DNA from: a virus
IMG/VR virus record: IMGVR_UViG_3300032038_001095
Direction: 5' to 3' (one strand)
DNA: 15,517 nucleotides
Shown piece by piece: positions 233-15,517 of the stretch. Position numbers and translations under genes: made by a program. The stretch's first letter is position 1, and every line of letters starts with the position of its first letter. The notes below the pieces were generated by a model, which worked only from the letters and a program-made list of their open reading frames with translations, was not told the DNA's origin and searched no databases.

Positions 233-433
233 TTAATCATCATCATCAATATCTTTTTTATAATTCTTTTTTGGCTTTACAGGTTTCATTTCAGAAACTT
301 TCATTCCCCATTTAAAATTCTTTTTCTTACGTTCCCATCTTAATCTAGCTTTTTCTTTAGGGTCTTCCGCAATATTTTCAGGATTCCATTCTTCTAAAGC
401 GTTTGTTGCTACTTTTGTCCACTTACTAGACAT
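233..433 (-). CDS. hypothetical small basic protein (66 aa)
   Basis: ORF with ATG at 433, AAAGGAGAA upstream, TAA stop; Lys-rich. Confidence 0.55.
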   Translation of the reverse strand: MSSKWTKVATNALEEWNPENIAEDPKEKARLRWERKKKNFKWGMKVSEMKPVKPKKNYKKDIDDDD

Positions 434-471: not shown

Positions 472-544
472 TTGAGATATTAGGATTTGAACCTAAATCT
501 AAATCTATTTAAAGATTTTATGTTTCCTTTTACACCATATCTCA
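472..544 (-). tRNA. tRNA with non-canonical anticodon arm (anticodon undetermined)
   Basis: perfect 7-bp acceptor TGAGATA/TATCTCA, D-stem GTGT/ACAT, canonical T-arm TTAGG-TTCAAAT-CCTAA; anticodon helix AAATCT/AGATTT gives 6-nt or 8-nt loop (UUUAAAUA) instead of 7. Confidence 0.5.
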
Positions 545-556
545 AACAGGTATTAC

Positions 557-904
557 TTATCCCTGAAGAAAAGATCCCAATAGATCAAAAAAAGAATCTA
601 CATTATATTTGTCATTTTCATTTTTTGTGGCACTTTTGTTTTTTACATCATCAGTAGAATAAGACATATGGAAATATCCATATTCATTTGTAAATTCTTT
701 TAGCAACTTAATAGCTTTTGCCTGAGCTTCATTAGCTTCTTTCAAAGCCTGTTCGACTTCTTTAGCTTTTGTTGCTCTTGCATTTTTCTTAGCTTTTTCA
801 GCTTCAAGCTTTTTACGCTCTTCTTCTCTTGCTTTTGTTTCCGCTTTGATCAGTTCCTGTTCTGTATCATAAAGCGCGTTTAATGTTTCACTGTAGTATT
901 TCAT
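557..904 (-). CDS. hypothetical coiled-coil protein (115 aa)
   Basis: ORF, RBS AGGAAAGG before ATG at 904, TAA stop; Lys/Glu/Ala-rich heptad-like sequence. Confidence 0.65.
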   Translation of the reverse strand: MKYYSETLNALYDTEQELIKAETKAREEERKKLEAEKAKKNARATKAKEVEQALKEANEAQAKAIKLLKEFTNEYGYFHMSYSTDDVKNKSATKNENDKYNVDSFFDLLGSFLQG

Positions 905-1224: not shown

Positions 1225-1250
1225 GGCATAAGATTGGATTTGAACCAATT
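1225..1250 (-). pseudogene. tRNA 3' half only (T-arm ATTGG-TTCAAAT-CCAAT + CTTATGC + C), no matching 5' half
   Basis: T-arm and 3' acceptor strand present; required 5' strand GCATAAG absent; flanked by 9-bp inverted repeat AAGACACAT (1174-1182) / ATGTGTCTT (1286-1294). Confidence 0.35.
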
Positions 1251-2139: not shown

Positions 2140-2215
2140 ATAGTTTATTTGCGTACGACTCGAACGTACTTTCATTACTTTTGCAGAGTAATTTATCATC
2201 CAGAGATATTAAATA
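2140..2215 (-). pseudogene. degenerate tRNA-like element (Cys-GCA-like anticodon arm plus T-arm, no valid acceptor)
   Basis: TTACT-CTGCAAA-AGTAA and GTACG-TTCGAGT-CGTAC present but 7 extra nt between T-stem and the only complementary acceptor strand; D-arm not formable. Confidence 0.3.
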
Positions 2216-2236
2216 TTGCTGTAACTATCTTTAATC

Positions 2237-2308
2237 TAGCTCGCTAGGGAATCGAACCCTAGATTCTAGTTTTAGAGACTAGCGTCTTAACCACTTGACC
2301 ACCGAGCC
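2237..2308 (-). tRNA. amber suppressor tRNA (anticodon CUA, reads UAG)
   Basis: acceptor GGCTCGG/GCGAGCT (6 bp, G7-G66 mispair), D-arm GTCAAGTGGTTAAGAC, anticodon arm CTAGT-CTCTAAA-ACTAG with U33 and A37, T-arm TAGGG-TTCGATT-CCCTA, A73. Confidence 0.85.
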
Positions 2309-2310
2309 AG

Positions 2311-2339
2311 ATAGCATATAAATTTAATATATGCTATAT
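2311..2339 (-). promoter_or_regulatory. perfect 9-bp hairpin immediately upstream of the suppressor tRNA 5' end
   Basis: ATAGCATAT aaatttaat ATATGCTAT; ATAGCATAT motif recurs at 2506. Confidence 0.3.
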
Positions 2340-2692
2340 TTAATCTATATAAATATAAATTTTTTCATTTACTTAACGCCTAGACATTATTAAGGGGTCT
2401 GCGTTGCCACACCTCATCCATTTTTATAAAATAACGCCTCAATTCAAAAATTTATATTTATATTTTTTCTTTCTTCATTTATTGTTTAATCTGTTAGTTA
2501 AACTCTATAGCATATTATAGTTTTCAAAAGAGGATCAATAAGTACAGAAAAATTAATTAAGTATATTTAGAGGATTATAATAATAAAATAAATAACATAT
2601 GCTTTATTTATTTTATTCTTCAACTATCGTATGAAGAACGTCTGCGGATATATCATTTCACCATACAGAAGGACTCACTTAGGGGGAGTCAA

Positions 2693-2775
<83 letters not shown>

Positions 2776-2829
2776 GTTTATTATTATTCAAATAAAGTTT
2801 TTAATACAAAAGATACTATATATAGATAA

Positions 2830-2938
2830 TTATCAGGGTGAGGATTTGCACCTCACATGACACCCGCGAGAATTTGTTTGTGTCAGATGCTACCTCGCGA
2901 TCCATGTAGTCTATGTCTACCTATTCCATCACCTGATA
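2830..2938 (-). ncRNA. tRNA-like structured RNA (E1) with about 55-nt internal insertion and non-canonical T-loop
   Basis: perfect terminal stem TATCAGG/CCTGATA (extendable to 9 bp), TG, class-II-like D-arm ATGG-AATAGGTAGA-CAT, 6-bp hairpin GTGAGG-TGCAAAT-CCTCAC; middle has crossing CGCGAG/CTCGCG and TGACAC/GTGTCA pairings. Confidence 0.5.
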
Positions 2939-3047
2939 ATATGGTCTTTTCCCATTGCCATCCATATTCTACCATGAAGGGTATCACTGCATTAGTCTCC
3001 CAGTGCGGATATCCGCTATCCAGAATGATCTGGCATCACTTTATCAA

Positions 3048-3237
3048 ATATACTGGTAAGGATTTACACCTTACATGGAAGATTCTGAACTTACGTTAGG
3101 ACTCCATTGCATACTACCCACTCGTGTCTTCCTTCAATCCATCGACTACTTTCAGTCTGATTGCAATTCGATTTCTGATTTCATCGCTGCACCAGTTACC
3201 CAATGCAGTAAGCGTCTACTTATTCCGCCACAGTATA
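3048..3237 (-). ncRNA. tRNA-like structured RNA (E2), paralog of E1, Leu-like D-arm, about 115-nt insertion
   Basis: perfect terminal stem TATACTG/CAGTATA, TG, D-arm GCGG-AATAAGTAGA-CGC (near-identical to tRNA-Leu D-arm), 6-bp hairpin GTAAGG-TGTAAAT-CCTTAC; CTTAC/GTAAG can close the insertion. Confidence 0.5.
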
Positions 3238-3735: not shown

Positions 3736-3764
3736 ATTATAACAAAAAATTTATATATTATCAA
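3736..3764 (-). promoter_or_regulatory. sigma70-type promoter TTGATA-N17-TATAAT
   Basis: rc reads TTGATAatatataaattttttgtTATAAT, 30 nt upstream of RBS of 3358-3702. Confidence 0.6.
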
Positions 3765-3774
3765 TTTTTTGAAG

Positions 3775-3845
3775 TTCTCAGGTAAGGAATCGAACCTTAC
3801 AACTAATACAAAGTATTAGAATATTTACCATTAATATTACTGAGA
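3775..3845 (-). tRNA. tRNA with ambiguous anticodon arm (UUU with C33, or UUG)
   Basis: acceptor TCTCAGT/CCTGAGA (6 bp + U7-C66), D TATT/AATA, T-arm TAAGG-TTCGATT-CCTTA; anticodon helix CTAAT(A)/(T)ATTAG leaves loop ACTTTGT or 5-nt CTTTG. Confidence 0.5.
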
Positions 3846-4344
3846 ATTTTATAAATAATACATAGAAAGGAAGATTAAAATATAATTTGTTTAAATTATA
3901 TTTAAAATGTCCTATGTAGGAACTGCCCCTACTCCTCTTATCGCCGCGTCTATCCAAGACATTTGCTCAAGGAAGCTAATTTTATAGGACACGCGGAAAC
4001 GGCTTCCGCACTCCTTTTACCTCTTTTATTAAAAAGAGTGGCTCTCCACTCGAATAGAGATTAAAGATAGATGGTTATTATCCTTTAAGGGGTCTATCAA
4101 CTCCCAGTATTAAAATTAAGTATATTTCGCTTTTTTCATAATCGTCTTCCGCCGGAAATATACAAACTGGTCAGGGACTACGTTCGTCGCTCACGAGACA
4201 AAATATTAATCTCAGGCCCAGAGTTTCCTTATCCTGTGTTCTATTGAAGTCACAATGCTTCAATCTGTGGTCACTTAATATTTCCGCAGGGCTTCATTCC
4301 TACACGTCATATCCTGTTAATTCAGGCCTTACAATCCCTTGAAG

Positions 4345-4844: not shown

Positions 4845-4916
4845 CGGGGTTAGAAGGATTTGAACCTTCGTAGTACGGTTAACAGCCGTAAGTCCTAACC
4901 ACTGGACGATAACCCC
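4845..4916 (-). tRNA. tRNA-Asn (anticodon GUU)
   Basis: perfect acceptor GGGGTTA/TAACCCC, anticodon arm TACGG-CTGTTAA-CCGTA, T-arm GAAGG-TTCAAAT-CCTTC. Confidence 0.9.
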
Positions 4917-13476: not shown

Positions 13477-14280
13477 TTATTCCTCATTTATAAAGATTAA
13501 TTTATCAATATAATTACGATCATCTTTTAAAATTGGCATTTCTTTATCAATAAACCAATGATTATTTTCATCTTTAATACATGCGGAACCCCGTTTTTTT
13601 ACTATAGGTAAATCATTCCAATTGATATTTTTTTCTGTAAGAAGTTTGTTTTGAAGCTGATTACAAGATAATCCTTGTATTTCTTTATGTGAAAAATTAG
13701 CTTGTGCTACCATTTGAATTGAGTTACGTGTTGCATCGAGCTGCCGCCAATAAATAAGATTAGTTACTTCCTCTTTTGGAATGTTAAAACAACGGGCATC
13801 AAACATTGCACCTTTATTAATTGCTCTACAATATGTATCAATATATTTATTATATTTAGTTTCTTTATTGTTATTACCGTCTATAAAAACATCAACTAAA
13901 ATATCATTTAAATTAGCAATAAGACGTTTATTAAAACTCATAGTAGCCATAGATGCGGCAATACTACAAAGTTTTTGTATTTTATAATCAAACCATGCAG
14001 AACTTTCTAATTTTGCATAATCAATAAGAATCAATGTAATTTCATCTGATTGTGTATATCCAAAAACACATCCTTGGATATTTTCACAAAGATATTGCAT
14101 TGTTTCTTGCATAGTTTTAATTAAAATATCATCAAAAGGTTTTTTAAATTCTCTACAAAAGGTATGAAAACTTTTTCCATCAATACGAATAGCAACAGGA
14201 GTTCTACGAGTTAAACGTACATTTGGTATATTTTCATAGTTTTCTTTCATACGTTTTCCAAGATTATCATGAATCGGCAT
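13477..14280 (-). CDS. thg1: Thg1-like protein (tRNA-His guanylyltransferase / 3'-5' nucleotidyltransferase family), 267 aa
   Basis: AAAGGAGAAAAA RBS before ATG 14280 (track ORF starts 5 codons earlier at a TTG); family motifs KRMKENYE...VAIRIDGKSFHTFCREFKKPFDD...GYTQSDE...KIQKLCSIAAS...IYWRQLDA. Confidence 0.8.
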   Translation of the reverse strand: MPIHDNLGKRMKENYENIPNVRLTRRTPVAIRIDGKSFHTFCREFKKPFDDILIKTMQETMQYLCENIQGCVFGYTQSDEITLILIDYAKLESSAWFDYKIQKLCSIAASMATMSFNKRLIANLNDILVDVFIDGNNNKETKYNKYIDTYCRAINKGAMFDARCFNIPKEEVTNLIYWRQLDATRNSIQMVAQANFSHKEIQGLSCNQLQNKLLTEKNINWNDLPIVKKRGSACIKDENNHWFIDKEMPILKDDRNYIDKLIFINEE

Positions 14281-14291
14281 TTTTTCTCCTT

Positions 14292-14477
14292 TCAACCATA
14301 AATTATTTCAAAACCGCAATCTGGACAAATTATTTTAACAGTTTCATAAGGTTTTCTATTTTTAAATTTAATTAAATTTCCACAAATACAAAAAACTCCA
14401 TTATTAAATTTTTTAGATAACTTCATATCACTTGATAAGCATATTTTCATATCTCTTCTCGGAATTTCTCGTATCAT
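14292..14477 (-). CDS. small zinc-ribbon protein (61 aa, C-x-C ... CPDC)
   Basis: ORF, RBS AAGGAAA, TGA stop adjacent to the Thg1-like RBS. Confidence 0.6.
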   Translation of the reverse strand: MIREIPRRDMKICLSSDMKLSKKFNNGVFCICGNLIKFKNRKPYETVKIICPDCGFEIIYG

Positions 14478-14566: not shown

Positions 14567-15517
14567 TTATTCAGGAATAGATTTAAGAATACCTTCAAGA
14601 GAAGTTCCACGAAGTAACTTATTAACTACTTCAGGTACGCTCTTATCTTGTGCAATAGCAAGAGGTGACATATTAACTGTAACTGTTTCTAACAGATCAG
14701 AATTTGCTTTAGCGGTAAGTGCTGCAATAAGATCTGGACTAATAGATGTTACAATTTCTTTAATTGTTGCTGCATAAGCTTCCTGTTTTGCTTTTTCAAG
14801 ATCTGCCTGCTTTTTCTTATATTCAATAGCTATTTCATTGCTAGCTTTTTCGCGGGCGTTCTTTGCGTCTTCGATTGCGGTTAAAATACTCTGAAGATCA
14901 GATTCTGCCTGTACCTTAGCGGCTTCCGCAGCTCTCTTCTTTTCATTAATTTCATTTTGAGCAAGAATTTTATTCTTTTCAAACTGTGCATCAAGATTAA
15001 GTTGCTGCTGGCGAACCTCATATTCAAGCTGCTGTTCTTTCTGCTGATACTCAGTTAACTGTTTTGTTACTTCAGCTTTTTGTGCTGCTTCTGATAAAGA
15101 TAATGTTTTTTCAACAATATCTGACTGATGAGATTCAAGAATTTTTGCTATGTTAGCCTGGACTTTAACAGCTAAAAGTTCTACATCTTTTACAAGCATA
15201 CCATTTTCAGAAAAGAATCTACCTTTAGGTCTACCTTCTGTAGATGTTTTTTCATTAAGATCGAGCACTACTTTTCTAACGATTTCTGTAGCATTAGTAT
15301 AAAATTCTTCAATAGTATATTTCTGAACTTCCTGTTTTAACAAACTTCTTTCTTTATCACAAAGATGTTTTACATAATTTTCTACGGAAAACCACTTATT
15401 TTTATATTTTTCAAGAAAATCTACATCATAAGATACTTCAAGTTTTACAGATACGAAATCTTTTGTATGAGCTACAATAACGTCAGAAATCTTATTATTT
15501 TCTACTCTTAAAAATGC
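14567..15517 (-). CDS. SPFH/band-7 (flotillin/HflC-like) domain protein, 5' end outside window
   Basis: frame open from window end (no stop in the 58 codons above the track's TTG start) to TAA 14567; SPFH-like segment with VENY motif followed by long Glu/Gln/Lys/Ala coiled coil. Confidence 0.65.
   Translation of the reverse strand, partial: AFLRVENNKISDVIVAHTKDFVSVKLEVSYDVDFLEKYKNKWFSVENYVKHLCDKERSLLKQEVQKYTIEEFYTNATEIVRKVVLDLNEKTSTEGRPKGRFFSENGMLVKDVELLAVKVQANIAKILESHQSDIVEKTLSLSEAAQKAEVTKQLTEYQQKEQQLEYEVRQQQLNLDAQFEKNKILAQNEINEKKRAAEAAKVQAESDLQSILTAIEDAKNAREKASNEIAIEYKKKQADLEKAKQEAYAATIKEIVTSISPDLIAALTAKANSDLLETVTVNMSPLAIAQDKSVPEVVNKLLRGTSLEGILKSIPE

What the first reader, a model, noticed from the sequence alone, without database searches (positions are those of the whole stretch)
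472..544. tRNA with a non-standard anticodon arm (6-bp stem + 6-nt loop, or 5-bp stem + 8-nt loop UUUAAAUA)
Acceptor, D and T arms are canonical and standard numbering places the T-stem exactly at 49-53, but the anticodon helix AAATCT/AGATTT cannot give a 7-nt loop. With the 5-bp register the loop is 8 nt, as in frameshift-suppressor tRNAs that read quadruplets. Candidate anticodons within it include AAA, UAA and UUA (UUA would pair with ochre UAA). The tRNA at 3775-3845 is similarly off-canonical (CTAATA/TATTAG helix with loop ACTTTGT lacking U33, or a 5-nt loop). Either the phage tolerates degenerate tRNAs or these have unusual decoding roles.
Basis: seen in the sequence. Interest (0 to 1): 0.5.

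Follow-up and report, generated by a model that had tools for sequence, protein, structure and literature searches.

The report
Phage tRNA look-alike with unconstrained anticodon loop
A gene in a rumen phage's tRNA cluster folds like a tRNA but has an 8-base anticodon loop; in related phages that loop is 6 or 9 bases or the arm is missing while the rest is conserved, so it is probably a non-decoding tRNA mimic and not a four-base-codon reader.

Summary
A tRNA-shaped gene lies on the minus strand at 472-544 (Rfam tRNA 51.6 bits; ARAGORN "tRNA-???", 4-base anticodon taaa). Its acceptor, D and T arms are canonical. Its anticodon arm is AAAUC/UUUAAAUA/GAUUU, and no register gives a 7-nt loop.

The quadruplet-decoder reading is not supported. 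Ten near-identical metagenome contigs keep the gene, and they vary only at unpaired positions. In related rumen phages the same syntenic slot, just after a conserved 115-aa ORF, holds:
- homologues with a 6-nt loop (UUUCUG or UUUUUA) or a 9-nt loop;
- versions with no anticodon arm;
- one bare acceptor/T-arm minihelix.

Across these forms 9 of 12 acceptor/T-stem pairs show compensatory changes. The body is as conserved as real tRNAs in the same array (0.83 against 0.59-0.89).

The second odd "tRNA" (about 3774-3846) is a tRNA-like element with the same pattern.

Most likely explanation: a tRNA-derived mimic kept for its acceptor/T-arm half. It could be an RNase P/Z processing or stability signal in the tRNA-ORF transcript, or a trans-acting mimic. 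The function is inferred, not shown.

Context: the phage reads TAG as sense, using tRNA(CUA) at 2236-2309, and stops mostly at TAA, so an ochre-suppressor role is unlikely.

The parts
472..544 (-). tRNA-like gene #1: a full cloverleaf of 73 nt. CCA is not encoded.
   Evidence: Rfam RF00005 at 51.6 bits. ARAGORN as tRNA-??? (taaa). RNAfold gives a cloverleaf at -15.2 kcal/mol, z = -2.6. Present in 10 near-identical contigs.
538..544 (-). Acceptor stem 5' strand, UGAGAUA. It pairs with 473-479 (UAUCUCA). Position 472 is the discriminator A73.
   Evidence: Read. Pairs 3:70, 4:69, 5:68, 6:67 and 7:66 show compensatory changes among syntenic forms.
520..535 (-). D arm: GUGU / AAAAGGAA / ACAU, with G18 G19.
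   Evidence: Within-clade polymorphisms fall in the loop only. The D arm is kept in the forms that lack the anticodon arm (L051, L058, L063).
501..518 (-). Anticodon arm. The stem is AAAUC (514-518) / GAUUU (501-505). The loop is UUUAAAUA (506-513), 8 nt. The alternative is a 6-bp stem with the 6-nt loop UUAAAU.
   Evidence: Loop position 7 is U or C within the clade. In homologues the loop is UUUCUG or UUUUUA (6 nt, L027-L030) or ACGCGUAAA (9 nt, L062). The arm is absent in L051, L058, L063 and L059.
480..496 (-). T arm: UUAGG UUCAAAU CCUAA.
   Evidence: Pairs 49:65, 50:64 and 52:62 covary among forms. T arm plus acceptor 3' strand (24 nt, 2 positions degenerate) is also found in tRNA-Gln(CUG) of other phage contigs and in a tRNA(CAU) of Winogradskyella tRNA arrays.
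3774..3846 (-). tRNA-like element #2: acceptor UUCUCAG/CUGAGAA, D arm AUAU..AUAU, middle hairpin CUAAUA-CUUUG-UAUUAG, 6-bp T arm GUAAGG UUCGAUU CCUUAC.
   Evidence: Sequence. Not called by ARAGORN or Rfam. Homologues in L031, L034, L036/38, L051 and L054 keep the acceptor, D and T arms, but the middle arm is absent or replaced. 4 of 13 acceptor/T pairs have compensatory changes and 97.4% of cells are paired. A TTGATA-17-TATAAT promoter-like site lies directly downstream at 3764-3736.
557..904 (-). Conserved 115-aa ORF. Its stop codon lies 11-12 nt upstream of tRNA-like #1. It was used as the synteny anchor.
   Evidence: 53 homologues found. No Pfam or PHROG family. The AlphaFold model is a beta-hairpin plus one long helix, pTM 0.33, and is uninformative.
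233..433 (-). 66-aa ORF that starts 37 nt downstream of tRNA-like #1. The intervening sequence holds its ribosome-binding site (AAGGAG).
   Evidence: A homologous 65-70-aa ORF follows the element in other clades.
2236..2309 (-). Context: a canonical tRNA with anticodon CUA (amber suppressor). This is the tRNA that does serve the phage's non-standard decoding.
   Evidence: ARAGORN and Rfam at 58.2 bits. In-frame TAG codons occur in the late genes of the same phage clade in L017.

Best explanation
The feature at 472-544(-) is a tRNA-derived, tRNA-shaped RNA gene that is probably not used as a codon reader. What selection keeps is the acceptor/T-arm 'top half' and, in most clades, the D arm and elbow. 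The anticodon loop drifts in length and sequence, and the whole arm can be lost.

The most likely way it works is as a substrate for the host's tRNA end-processing machinery. RNase P would cut at its 5' side. RNase Z or exonucleases plus the CCA-adding enzyme would act at its 3' side. That would cut and/or stabilise the long same-strand tRNA-ORF transcript, releasing the 115-aa-ORF message upstream and giving the 66-aa-ORF message a short defined leader. This is the role tRNA-like 't-elements' play in plant mitochondria.

Shown here: the structure, conservation of the gene, covariation of the acceptor and T stems, and dispensability of the anticodon arm.
Inferred, not shown: transcription, cleavage by RNase P/Z, and any effect on the neighbouring messages.

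The 0.45 is for the cis-processing mechanism specifically. I put about 0.65 on the broader statement that the function does not depend on an anticodon.
For: 1. It is a genuine tRNA fold with a non-7-nt loop.

2. Within its own clade (11 sequences) all 5 variable sites are unpaired: D loop (2), position 26, loop position 7 and the T loop. My calculation gives a chance of about 0.011 that 5 sites all fall among the 31 unpaired of 73 positions. L027 and L028 differ only in the anticodon loop. L051 and L058 differ at 3 unpaired sites and one G.U-to-A-U change that keeps the pair.

3. Different clades carry different forms in the same slot after the 115-aa ORF:
- 6-nt loop in L027-L030;
- 9-nt loop in L062;
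- acceptor + D + T arms but no anticodon arm in L051-53, L058 and L063;
- acceptor/T minihelix only in L059-61.
Each folds as described.

4. For the acceptor + T stems of the 8 distinct forms, 94.8% of cells are paired and 9 of 12 pairs have changes on both sides. 0 of 500 shuffles reach this, and slid registers give 44-48% paired.

5. Window versus L027 identity is 0.83. Canonical tRNAs of the same two arrays range from 0.59 to 0.89. Third codon positions of the flanking ORFs are 0.60-0.62 identical.

6. Element #2 (3774-3846) shows the same pattern independently. A third family in distant phages (L007, L012, L013, L015) has loops of 8, 8, 5 and 5 nt.

7. Everything in the array is on one strand. 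The element sits 11-12 nt after one ORF's stop codon and 37 nt before the next ORF's start codon.

8. Precedent: plant mitochondrial t-elements contribute to mRNA 5' and 3' end formation (PMC1920247). A tRNA-like Y RNA module is cleaved by RNase P and receives CCA (PMC4201824).
Against: There are no expression or cleavage data.

Tight ORF-to-tRNA spacing is not a general rule in the window. Only 2 of about 10 array ORFs have a tRNA or tRNA-like element within 12 nt of their stop codon.

Other clades have a plain terminator hairpin (L036, L054) or nothing (L055) at this slot, so the element is not indispensable.

Homology of the arm-less forms (L051, L063, L059) to the window gene rests on synteny and shape. 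Sequence similarity alone does not single them out. Part of the 'covariation' could therefore reflect different parental tRNAs.

I built the top-half alignment by excising the middle of each element, so it leans towards the tested structure.

Window, L027 and L062 still keep a 5-bp anticodon stem. This is not needed for RNase P or RNase Z.

The window-clade loop keeps U33-like Us and an A-rich centre, so a decoding role in this one clade is not strictly excluded.
Confidence: 0.45

Rival explanations
1. It is a trans-acting tRNA mimic. The processed RNA (acceptor/T/D core) would act as a stable small RNA that binds a protein. It could be a Y-RNA-like partner of the phage's Ro-like protein, a substrate or guide for the phage Thg1-like enzyme or RNA ligase, or a decoy for a host factor that recognises the tRNA acceptor end or elbow.
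For: The selection pattern is the same as for the best explanation.

The phage clade encodes a 498-aa DUF2828+DUF7788 protein 2.1 kb downstream on the same strand (L017:8351-9847). Its mycobacteriophage homologues are annotated 'Ro-like RNA binding protein'.

Bacterial and phage Y RNAs (YrlA) carry a tRNA-like module and lie within 4 kb of Ro60 on the same strand (PMC4201824).

A Thg1-like protein is in the window at 13477-14295. Position 1:72 is mismatched in 4 of the 8 forms.
Against: No Y-RNA family was reported by Rfam at gathering score in the window or in 10 related loci. None appeared at E<=1 around the element.

YrlA has a permuted order (T arm, capped acceptor-like stem, D arm) and a 5' GNCGAAN0-1G motif. 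This element has normal tRNA order with free ends at the acceptor stem, and I saw no such motif in its sequence.

Clades L031, L034 and L036 have the Ro-like gene but lack the element.

No dedicated promoter or terminator is evident. The best nearby promoter-like site scores 9 of 12.
Confidence: 0.2
2. It is a decaying tRNA pseudogene. A former decoder suffered an indel in its anticodon loop and is being lost. The different forms in other clades are different stages of decay.
For: The slot is empty or holds only a terminator hairpin in several clades.

The array contains further unannotated T-arm remnants at 1233-1249 and 2153-2169.

Phage tRNA arrays clearly turn over. Gene content differs between clades.
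Against: Decay should hit the stems. Instead no stem-breaking change was seen in 11 within-clade differences.

9 of 12 top-half pairs changed on both sides while staying paired.

The body is as conserved as working tRNAs (0.83 against 0.59-0.89) and more conserved than third codon positions (0.60-0.62).

The same lesion type, anticodon arm only, recurs in three independent families.
Confidence: 0.12
3. It is a working decoder in the window clade. Either it is a +1 frameshift or quadruplet tRNA (anticodon UAAA reading UUUA), or it is an 8-nt-loop tRNA that still reads triplets (UAA reading UUA/UUG, or AAA reading UUU), as yeast mitochondrial tRNA-Thr1 does.
For: The 8-nt loop is kept in all 11 clade members. 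Only loop position 7 varies (U or C), so UUUAAA is invariant.

The fold is otherwise complete.

8-nt-loop tRNAs can function. Yeast mitochondrial tRNA-Thr(UAG) reads CUN (PMC3113583; PMC7609411), and engineered E. coli tRNAs read quadruplets (PMC9094753).

The phage set lacks tRNA-Phe and tRNA-Tyr, although UUU is 41 per 1000 codons and UAU is 53 per 1000.
Against: The 11 sequences are about 99% identical, so loop conservation within the clade carries little weight.

The nearest diverged homologues have 6-nt or 9-nt loops with no shared anticodon, or no arm.

With U33 as the second loop base, position 37 of a UAAA anticodon would be U or C, not a purine (read from the sequence).

A class-II tRNA-Leu(UAA) already exists at 2693-2775.

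40 in-frame UUU-A sites occur in 2290 codons of window ORFs. Efficient quadruplet reading would be toxic.

A UUA (ochre) reading conflicts with TAA being the stop of 15 of 16 window ORFs.

No gene needing a +1 shift was looked for or found.
Confidence: 0.1

Closest known systems
Plant mitochondrial t-elements (tRNA-like processing signals; PMC1920247)
   Same: Both derive from tRNAs. Both keep acceptor and T-arm features while the anticodon domain is degenerate or absent. Both sit next to coding regions in multi-gene transcripts. In plants they are reported to contribute to mRNA 5' and 3' end formation.
   Different: Different system: a bacteriophage, not an organelle. Processing here is untested. 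The window copy still has a full cloverleaf with a D arm and an anticodon stem.
Frameshift-suppressor and quadruplet-decoding tRNAs with 8-nt anticodon loops (sufD/sufA6/sufJ type; engineered qtRNAs, PMC9094753)
   Same: An 8-nt anticodon loop in an otherwise complete tRNA fold.
   Different: Those are single-base insertions in a known decoder, and the anticodon arm is otherwise unchanged. Here the closest canonical tRNAs share only the acceptor, T and D parts. Homologues have loops of 6 or 9 nt or no arm. No cognate quadruplet sites are known.
Yeast mitochondrial tRNA-Thr1(UAG) with an 8-nt loop (PMC3113583)
   Same: A natural, conserved tRNA with an enlarged 8-nt loop, derived from another tRNA.
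   Different: That tRNA has a conserved anticodon and a demonstrated triplet-decoding role (CUN read as Thr). Here the loop is not conserved across clades.
Bacterial and phage YrlA Y RNAs (tRNA mimics bound by Ro60; PMC4201824)
   Same: A non-decoding RNA with tRNA-like D and T arms and an acceptor-like stem. It is encoded near a Ro-type protein gene in phages with tRNA clusters. One member is cut by RNase P and receives CCA.
   Different: YrlA has a permuted order and a Ro-binding module. There is no Rfam hit here, the element has normal tRNA topology, and it is absent from several clades that have the Ro-like gene.
Small stable tRNA-like RNAs in the phage T4 tRNA cluster (species 1 and 2 RNAs). 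This is from my own knowledge and was not checked here.
   Same: Non-decoding RNAs encoded among phage tRNA genes and matured together with them.
   Different: They are longer, have no sequence relation, and their function is also unknown.

Membership tests
Canonical elongator tRNA (decoder) | Cloverleaf with a 7-bp acceptor stem, D arm with G18 G19, 5-bp T stem and a UUCRANY T loop | tested here: met
   Rfam RF00005 at 51.6 bits, covering model positions 1-71. ARAGORN call. RNAfold cloverleaf.
Canonical elongator tRNA (decoder) | 7-nt anticodon loop with U33 and a purine at position 37 | tested here: not met
   The loop is 8 nt (UUUAAAUA), or 6 nt if the U-A pair closes. The Rfam alignment needs an insertion in the loop. 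ARAGORN reports a 4-base anticodon.
Canonical elongator tRNA (decoder) | The same anticodon in orthologues of related genomes | tested here: not met
   Syntenic homologues have UUUCUG or UUUUUA (6 nt), ACGCGUAAA (9 nt), or no anticodon arm. Canonical tRNAs of the same arrays keep their anticodons.
Canonical elongator tRNA (decoder) | Expression, CCA addition and aminoacylation | not testable with these tools
   No RNA data are available. CCA is not encoded.
+1 frameshift-suppressor / quadruplet-decoding tRNA | 8-nt anticodon loop | tested here: met
   All 11 members of the window clade have it.
+1 frameshift-suppressor / quadruplet-decoding tRNA | A parent decoder identifiable by an otherwise intact anticodon arm (single-base insertion) | tested here: not met
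   The closest canonical tRNAs are tRNA-Gln(CUG) in L039-42 and tRNA(CAU) in L064-65. They share the acceptor and T arms (and the D arm in the Gln case) but not the anticodon arm.
+1 frameshift-suppressor / quadruplet-decoding tRNA | Genes that need the corresponding quadruplet or +1 shift | not tested
   Only about 25 kb of this clade is available (window, L017, L018). I counted only the in-frame UUU-A frequency, which is 40 in 2290 codons.
tRNA pseudogene | Relaxed constraint over the whole molecule, with stem mismatches accumulating | tested here: not met
   There are no stem-breaking polymorphisms. 94.8% of top-half cells are paired and 9 of 12 pairs are compensated. Identity is comparable to working tRNAs.
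tRNA-like processing element (t-element type) | Acceptor + T arm retained, anticodon domain dispensable | tested here: met
   Element #2 shows the same.
tRNA-like processing element (t-element type) | Located at mRNA boundaries within a polycistronic transcript | tested here: inconclusive
   It lies 11-12 nt after the stop codon of ORF 557-904 and 37 nt before the start codon of ORF 233-433, all on one strand. Tight spacing is not general in the array.
tRNA-like processing element (t-element type) | Cleavage by RNase P and/or RNase Z at its ends | not testable with these tools
   This needs RNA end mapping or in vitro assays.
YrlA-type Y RNA | Ro60-type protein gene within about 4 kb on the same strand | tested here: inconclusive
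   The DUF2828/DUF7788 'Ro-like' gene is 2.1 kb downstream in L017, outside the window. Its relation to Ro60 itself was not shown: there was no PDB sequence hit.
YrlA-type Y RNA | Permuted tRNA-like module plus a Ro-binding 5' motif (GNCGAAN0-1G); match to the covariance model | tested here: not met
   The element has normal tRNA order and the motif is not seen in its sequence. No Y-RNA family was reported by Rfam.

The most novel reading that the evidence does not exclude
These anticodon-less tRNA look-alikes could be a new class of phage RNA. At least three families occur in large rumen and gut phages. One tRNA-shaped cassette interrupts the anticodon of tRNA-Asn in L017 and, in L027, carries an HNH-like ORF. 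They would be tRNA-shaped modules recognised by tRNA end-processing enzymes. Some copies would act as mobile 'tRNA-shaped introns', excised by RNase P and RNase Z and resealed by the phage RNA ligase. Others, like the window gene, would be fixed as processing signals or as trans-acting mimics that work with the phage's Ro-like, Thg1-like or ligase proteins.
Probability: 0.15. Interest if true: 0.8.

Novelty: new variant of a known kind. Interest (0 to 1): 0.45.

Why it matters
Phage tRNA genes flagged "tRNA-???" with 4-base or 2-base anticodons are easily read as evidence for exotic decoding. Here comparative data point the other way. The anticodon is the one part selection ignores, and the acceptor/T-arm half is what is kept.

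If that holds generally, large phages carry conserved tRNA mimics among their tRNA genes. That bears on three things: how phage tRNA-ORF arrays are expressed and processed, how phage tRNA repertoires are counted and interpreted, and what the phage-encoded Ro-like, Thg1-like and RNA-ligase proteins act on.

It also guards against over-calling quadruplet decoding in a phage that does use a non-standard code (TAG read as sense), for which a normal tRNA(CUA) already accounts.

Tried and rejected
- **Close relatives in public phage collections.** Megablast of the whole window against INPHARED gave only a 54-bp hit. Exact and degenerate tRNA patterns in IMG/VR found nothing, or only chance matches in coding DNA. 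Relatives came instead from exact-protein look-ups in ENA and Logan.
- **Distant IMG/VR relatives of the 115-aa ORF (L001-L016).** They have no element in the slot.
- **A standard 7-nt loop under another register.** None is possible. The covariance model inserts a base in the loop.
- **Ochre suppressor (UUA).** Rejected because TAA is the main stop codon and U33 would be displaced.
- **Stop-codon recoding inside the window.** ORF lengths under alternative codes were not decisive. Recoding only became clear in L017 late genes.
- **Gln origin.** The body resembles tRNA-Gln(CUG) of other phages. But an identical acceptor + T arm also occurs in a tRNA(CAU) of Winogradskyella arrays, so I do not assign a parent.
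- **YrlA / Y RNA.** No Rfam hit and a different topology.
- **attP-type partial tRNA copy (my own consideration).** Rejected because both acceptor strands are present and form the helix.
- **Anticodon-nuclease decoy (my own consideration).** Rejected because the anticodon arm is dispensable.
- **The neighbouring 115-aa protein as a clue.** It has no family. The model is a long helix with low pTM. No fold search was run because it would not be meaningful.
- **Ro-like protein against PDB sequences.** No hit.

Full report
**1. What is there**

The window is AT-rich (32% GC). It carries an array of 16 ARAGORN tRNA calls, all on the minus strand, interspersed with small ORFs. Rfam confirms 15 of them.

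The finding's feature is on the minus strand. ARAGORN reports 471-545 as "tRNA-???" with a 4-base anticodon taaa. Rfam matches 472-544 at 51.6 bits (E=8.9e-9 for the whole window), covering the full model with one extra base inserted in the anticodon loop.

The RNA reads: UGAGAUA UG GUGU AAAAGGAA ACAU A AAAUC UUUAAAUA GAUUU AGAU UUAGG UUCAAAU CCUAA UAUCUCA A. The acceptor, D and T arms are textbook. The anticodon arm is 5 bp + 8 nt, or 6 bp + 6 nt as RNAfold prefers. No register gives 7 nt.

**2. It is real and kept**

An exact-protein look-up of the adjacent 115-aa ORF (557-904) returned ten contigs from different ENA and Logan samples. All carry the same gene.

In the alignment, the 5 variable sites inside the gene are all unpaired: two in the D loop, position 26, the seventh loop base (U or C) and one T-loop base. 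By my calculation the chance of that is about 0.011.

The sequences are about 99% identical. Conservation of the loop within this clade therefore says little.

**3. The decisive comparison**

Homologues of the 115-aa ORF (53 clusters) led to related contigs. The sample names suggest rumen metagenomes, and the contigs reach 120-130 kb. The slot just after that ORF varies by clade:

| Loci | What sits in the slot |
|---|---|
| L027-L030 (ORF 68% identical) | Clear homologue, 60/70 identical, same AAAUC/GAUUU stem, G3:C70 where the window has A3:U70. Loop is 6 nt: UUUCUG or UUUUUA |
| L062 (71%) | Full cloverleaf, stem UAAUC/GAUUA, 9-nt loop ACGCGUAAA |
| L051-53, L058, L063 | Acceptor stem, D arm and T arm joined by 2-4 nt. 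No anticodon arm |
| L059-61 | Only an acceptor/T-arm minihelix: AGGAGUG-C-UUAGG UUCAACU CCUAA-A-CACUCCU |
| L036, L054 | Only a GC hairpin with a T run |
| L055 | Nothing |

Each form folds as described.

For the 12 acceptor + T-stem pairs of the eight distinct forms:
- 94.8% of cells are paired;
- 9 pairs changed on both sides;
- 0 of 500 shuffles reach this, and slid registers give 44-48% pairing.

Within clades, 11 differences include none that breaks a pair.

The window and L027 genes are 0.83 identical. That is within the range of the canonical tRNAs of the same two arrays (0.59-0.89) and above third codon positions of the flanking ORFs (0.60-0.62).

Among 279 distinct ARAGORN calls in all loci, only this family and one other have non-7-nt loops. 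Loops are therefore normally tightly held.

Caveats:
- I made the top-half alignment by cutting out the middle of each element.
- For the arm-less forms, homology rests on synteny and shape. Sequence similarity alone does not single them out.

**4. The second element**

It has the acceptor stem UUCUCAG/CUGAGAA, a D arm and a 6-bp T arm. ARAGORN and Rfam do not call it.

Its counterparts upstream of the homologous 114/115-aa ORF in L031, L034, L036/38, L051 and L054 keep those three parts, with 4 compensated pairs and 97.4% pairing. The middle arm is absent (L031, L036, L051) or replaced (L034, L054).

A near-consensus promoter follows it: TTGATA-17-TATAAT in the window, and TTGACA-17-TATAAT in four other clades.

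A third family, in distant 110-120-kb phages (L007, L012, L013, L015), has loops of 8, 8, 5 and 5 nt on a conserved body. The pattern therefore recurs.

**5. What it is not**

*Quadruplet or frameshift reader.* No anticodon is shared across clades. With U33 as the second loop base, a UAAA anticodon would be followed by a pyrimidine. Window ORFs contain 40 in-frame UUU-A sites in 2290 codons.

*Ochre reader.* 15 of 16 window ORFs stop at TAA.

*The phage's actual code change.* In L017, which continues the window's clade beyond position 1, the opposite-strand genes (including a reverse transcriptase) carry 1-7 in-frame TAG codons each and end in TAA or TGA. The canonical tRNA(CUA) at 2236-2309 accounts for that.

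*Plain pseudogene.* The stems are protected, as shown in section 3.

*YrlA-type Y RNA.* Rfam reports none and the topology differs. However, a "Ro-like RNA binding protein" homologue (DUF2828/DUF7788) lies 2.1 kb downstream on the same strand.

*Parentage.* Unresolved.
- The D arm, T arm and acceptor stem resemble a tRNA-Gln(CUG) of other phage contigs.
- The identical acceptor + T arm and A73 also occur in a tRNA(CAU) of Winogradskyella arrays.
- The anticodon arm matches neither.

**6. How it most likely works**

What is conserved is what RNase P, RNase Z and the CCA-adding enzyme recognise (established knowledge of tRNA processing): a 12-13-layer acceptor/T helix with a T loop, usually with a D arm to form the elbow.

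The gene sits 11-12 nt after the stop codon of one ORF and 37 nt before the start codon of the next, in a same-strand array.

My best reading (0.45) is a tRNA-derived processing or stability signal. The analogy is plant mitochondrial t-elements (PMC1920247) and the RNase-P-cleaved, CCA-tailed tRNA-like module of M. smegmatis YrlA (PMC4201824).

Against this reading, tight ORF-tRNA spacing is not general in the array, and several clades do without the element.

The rivals are:
- a trans-acting mimic, possibly partnered with the Ro-like, Thg1-like or ligase proteins (0.2);
- a decaying pseudogene (0.12);
- a clade-specific decoder with an 8-nt loop, as in yeast mitochondrial tRNA-Thr1 (PMC3113583) (0.1).

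Nothing about expression is shown.

**7. Verdict**

The exotic-decoding interpretation is not supported. The feature is a conserved tRNA look-alike whose anticodon loop is unconstrained.

I rate it a new variant of a known kind (tRNA-like elements and mimics), of moderate interest. The by-products in the list of things noticed in passing add some value, notably the tRNA-shaped insert that splits tRNA-Asn.

Noticed in passing
window 2236-2309 (-); L017:10728-15824 (-): The phage reads TAG as sense. Nine opposite-strand genes in L017 (same clade, just beyond window position 1) were checked. Seven carry 1-7 in-frame TAG codons, and all end in TAA or TGA. The window holds the matching canonical tRNA(CUA). 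Window genes themselves use the standard code. The amino acid inserted at TAG was not determined.
   Followed up: partly
L017:1750-1899; L027:about 2272-3110: In L017, tRNA-Asn(GUU), otherwise identical to window 4845-4916, is split inside its anticodon (CUGU|...|UAACCG) by a 78-nt insert. The insert itself folds as a cloverleaf. In L027 the same insert ends, with compensatory changes in their acceptor and D stems, flank about 770 nt that encode a TAG-recoded 209-aa ORF. That ORF has an HNH-like motif (Pfam HNH E=0.007, below threshold). This could be a mobile tRNA-shaped intron or a gene-disrupting insertion. It is too small to be a group I intron.
   Followed up: partly
window 13477-14295 (-): A Thg1-like protein (tRNA-His guanylyltransferase family: PHROG 4717 E=3.5e-85, Pfam Thg1 E=3e-30) is encoded next to the tRNA array. 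Several tRNA-like elements have a mismatched 1:72 pair. A role in 5'-end repair is conceivable but untested.
   Followed up: no
L017:8351-9847 (+); homologues in L031, L034, L036, L051, L054, L055: A 498-510-aa DUF2828+DUF7788 protein sits at the end of the tRNA array. Its homologues occur in 703 phage records, and mycobacteriophage annotators call it 'Ro-like RNA binding protein'. It had no PDB sequence hit.
   Followed up: partly
window 1233-1249 and 2153-2169 (-): Two more T-arm-like hairpins (AUUGG UUCAAAU CCAAU and GUACG UUCGAGU CGUAC) are not part of any ARAGORN or Rfam tRNA call. The second is preceded by an anticodon-arm-like UUACU CUGCAAA AGUAA (GCA, Cys-like). They may be further tRNA remnants or mimics.
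   Followed up: no
L031:10618-10689, L039:626-697, L027:10999-11071: A short (72-73 nt, class I) tRNA body carries anticodon UAA in some phages and UCC in others, with nearly the same body. The UCC version in L027 has G3:U70 and A73, the alanine identity pair. This suggests anticodon switching between isoacceptor families within these arrays.
   Followed up: no
L007:2746-2822, L012:about 2900-2975, L013:2897-2971, L015:2795-2864: In distant 110-120-kb phages a conserved tRNA body sits between tRNA-Leu(CAA) and tRNA-Gly(UCC). Its anticodon loops are 8 nt (UGCAGGAA), 8 nt (AGAUAUAC), 5 nt and 5 nt. This is a third family with an unconstrained loop.
   Followed up: partly
L027:4360-5000; L017:15842-16057; L034:124-391: Rfam finds a ROOL RNA (274 bits) inside the tRNA array of L027. 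It finds an RT-2 RNA next to the reverse-transcriptase gene in L017. It finds a tmRNA in L034. None of these is in the window.
   Followed up: no
window 3736-3764 (-) and about 3860-3870 (-): tRNA-like element #2 is preceded by a motif CUUCCUUUCU that is conserved in six clades. It is followed by a near-consensus sigma-70 promoter with an extended -10 (TTGATA-17-TATAAT).
   Followed up: no
L031:10334-10513: In the clade that lacks the tRNA-like element, the gap after the 115-aa ORF homologue holds a GC-rich stretch of about 130 nt. It is flanked by the inverted repeat GATAAGC...GCTTATC and had no Rfam match. It may be another structured RNA.
   Followed up: no
window 14567-15343 (-): The first 61 residues of this ORF match the major vault protein 'shoulder' domain (Pfam PF11978, E=1.5e-7, above threshold). 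This is unusual for a phage protein.
   Followed up: no
L036:9832-9903, L037:1141-1212, L038:3769-3840; L027:761-836; L031:3951-4023: Several array tRNAs have A at the wobble position: His(AUG), Thr(AGU) and Ser(AGA). This is uncommon in bacteria.
   Followed up: no
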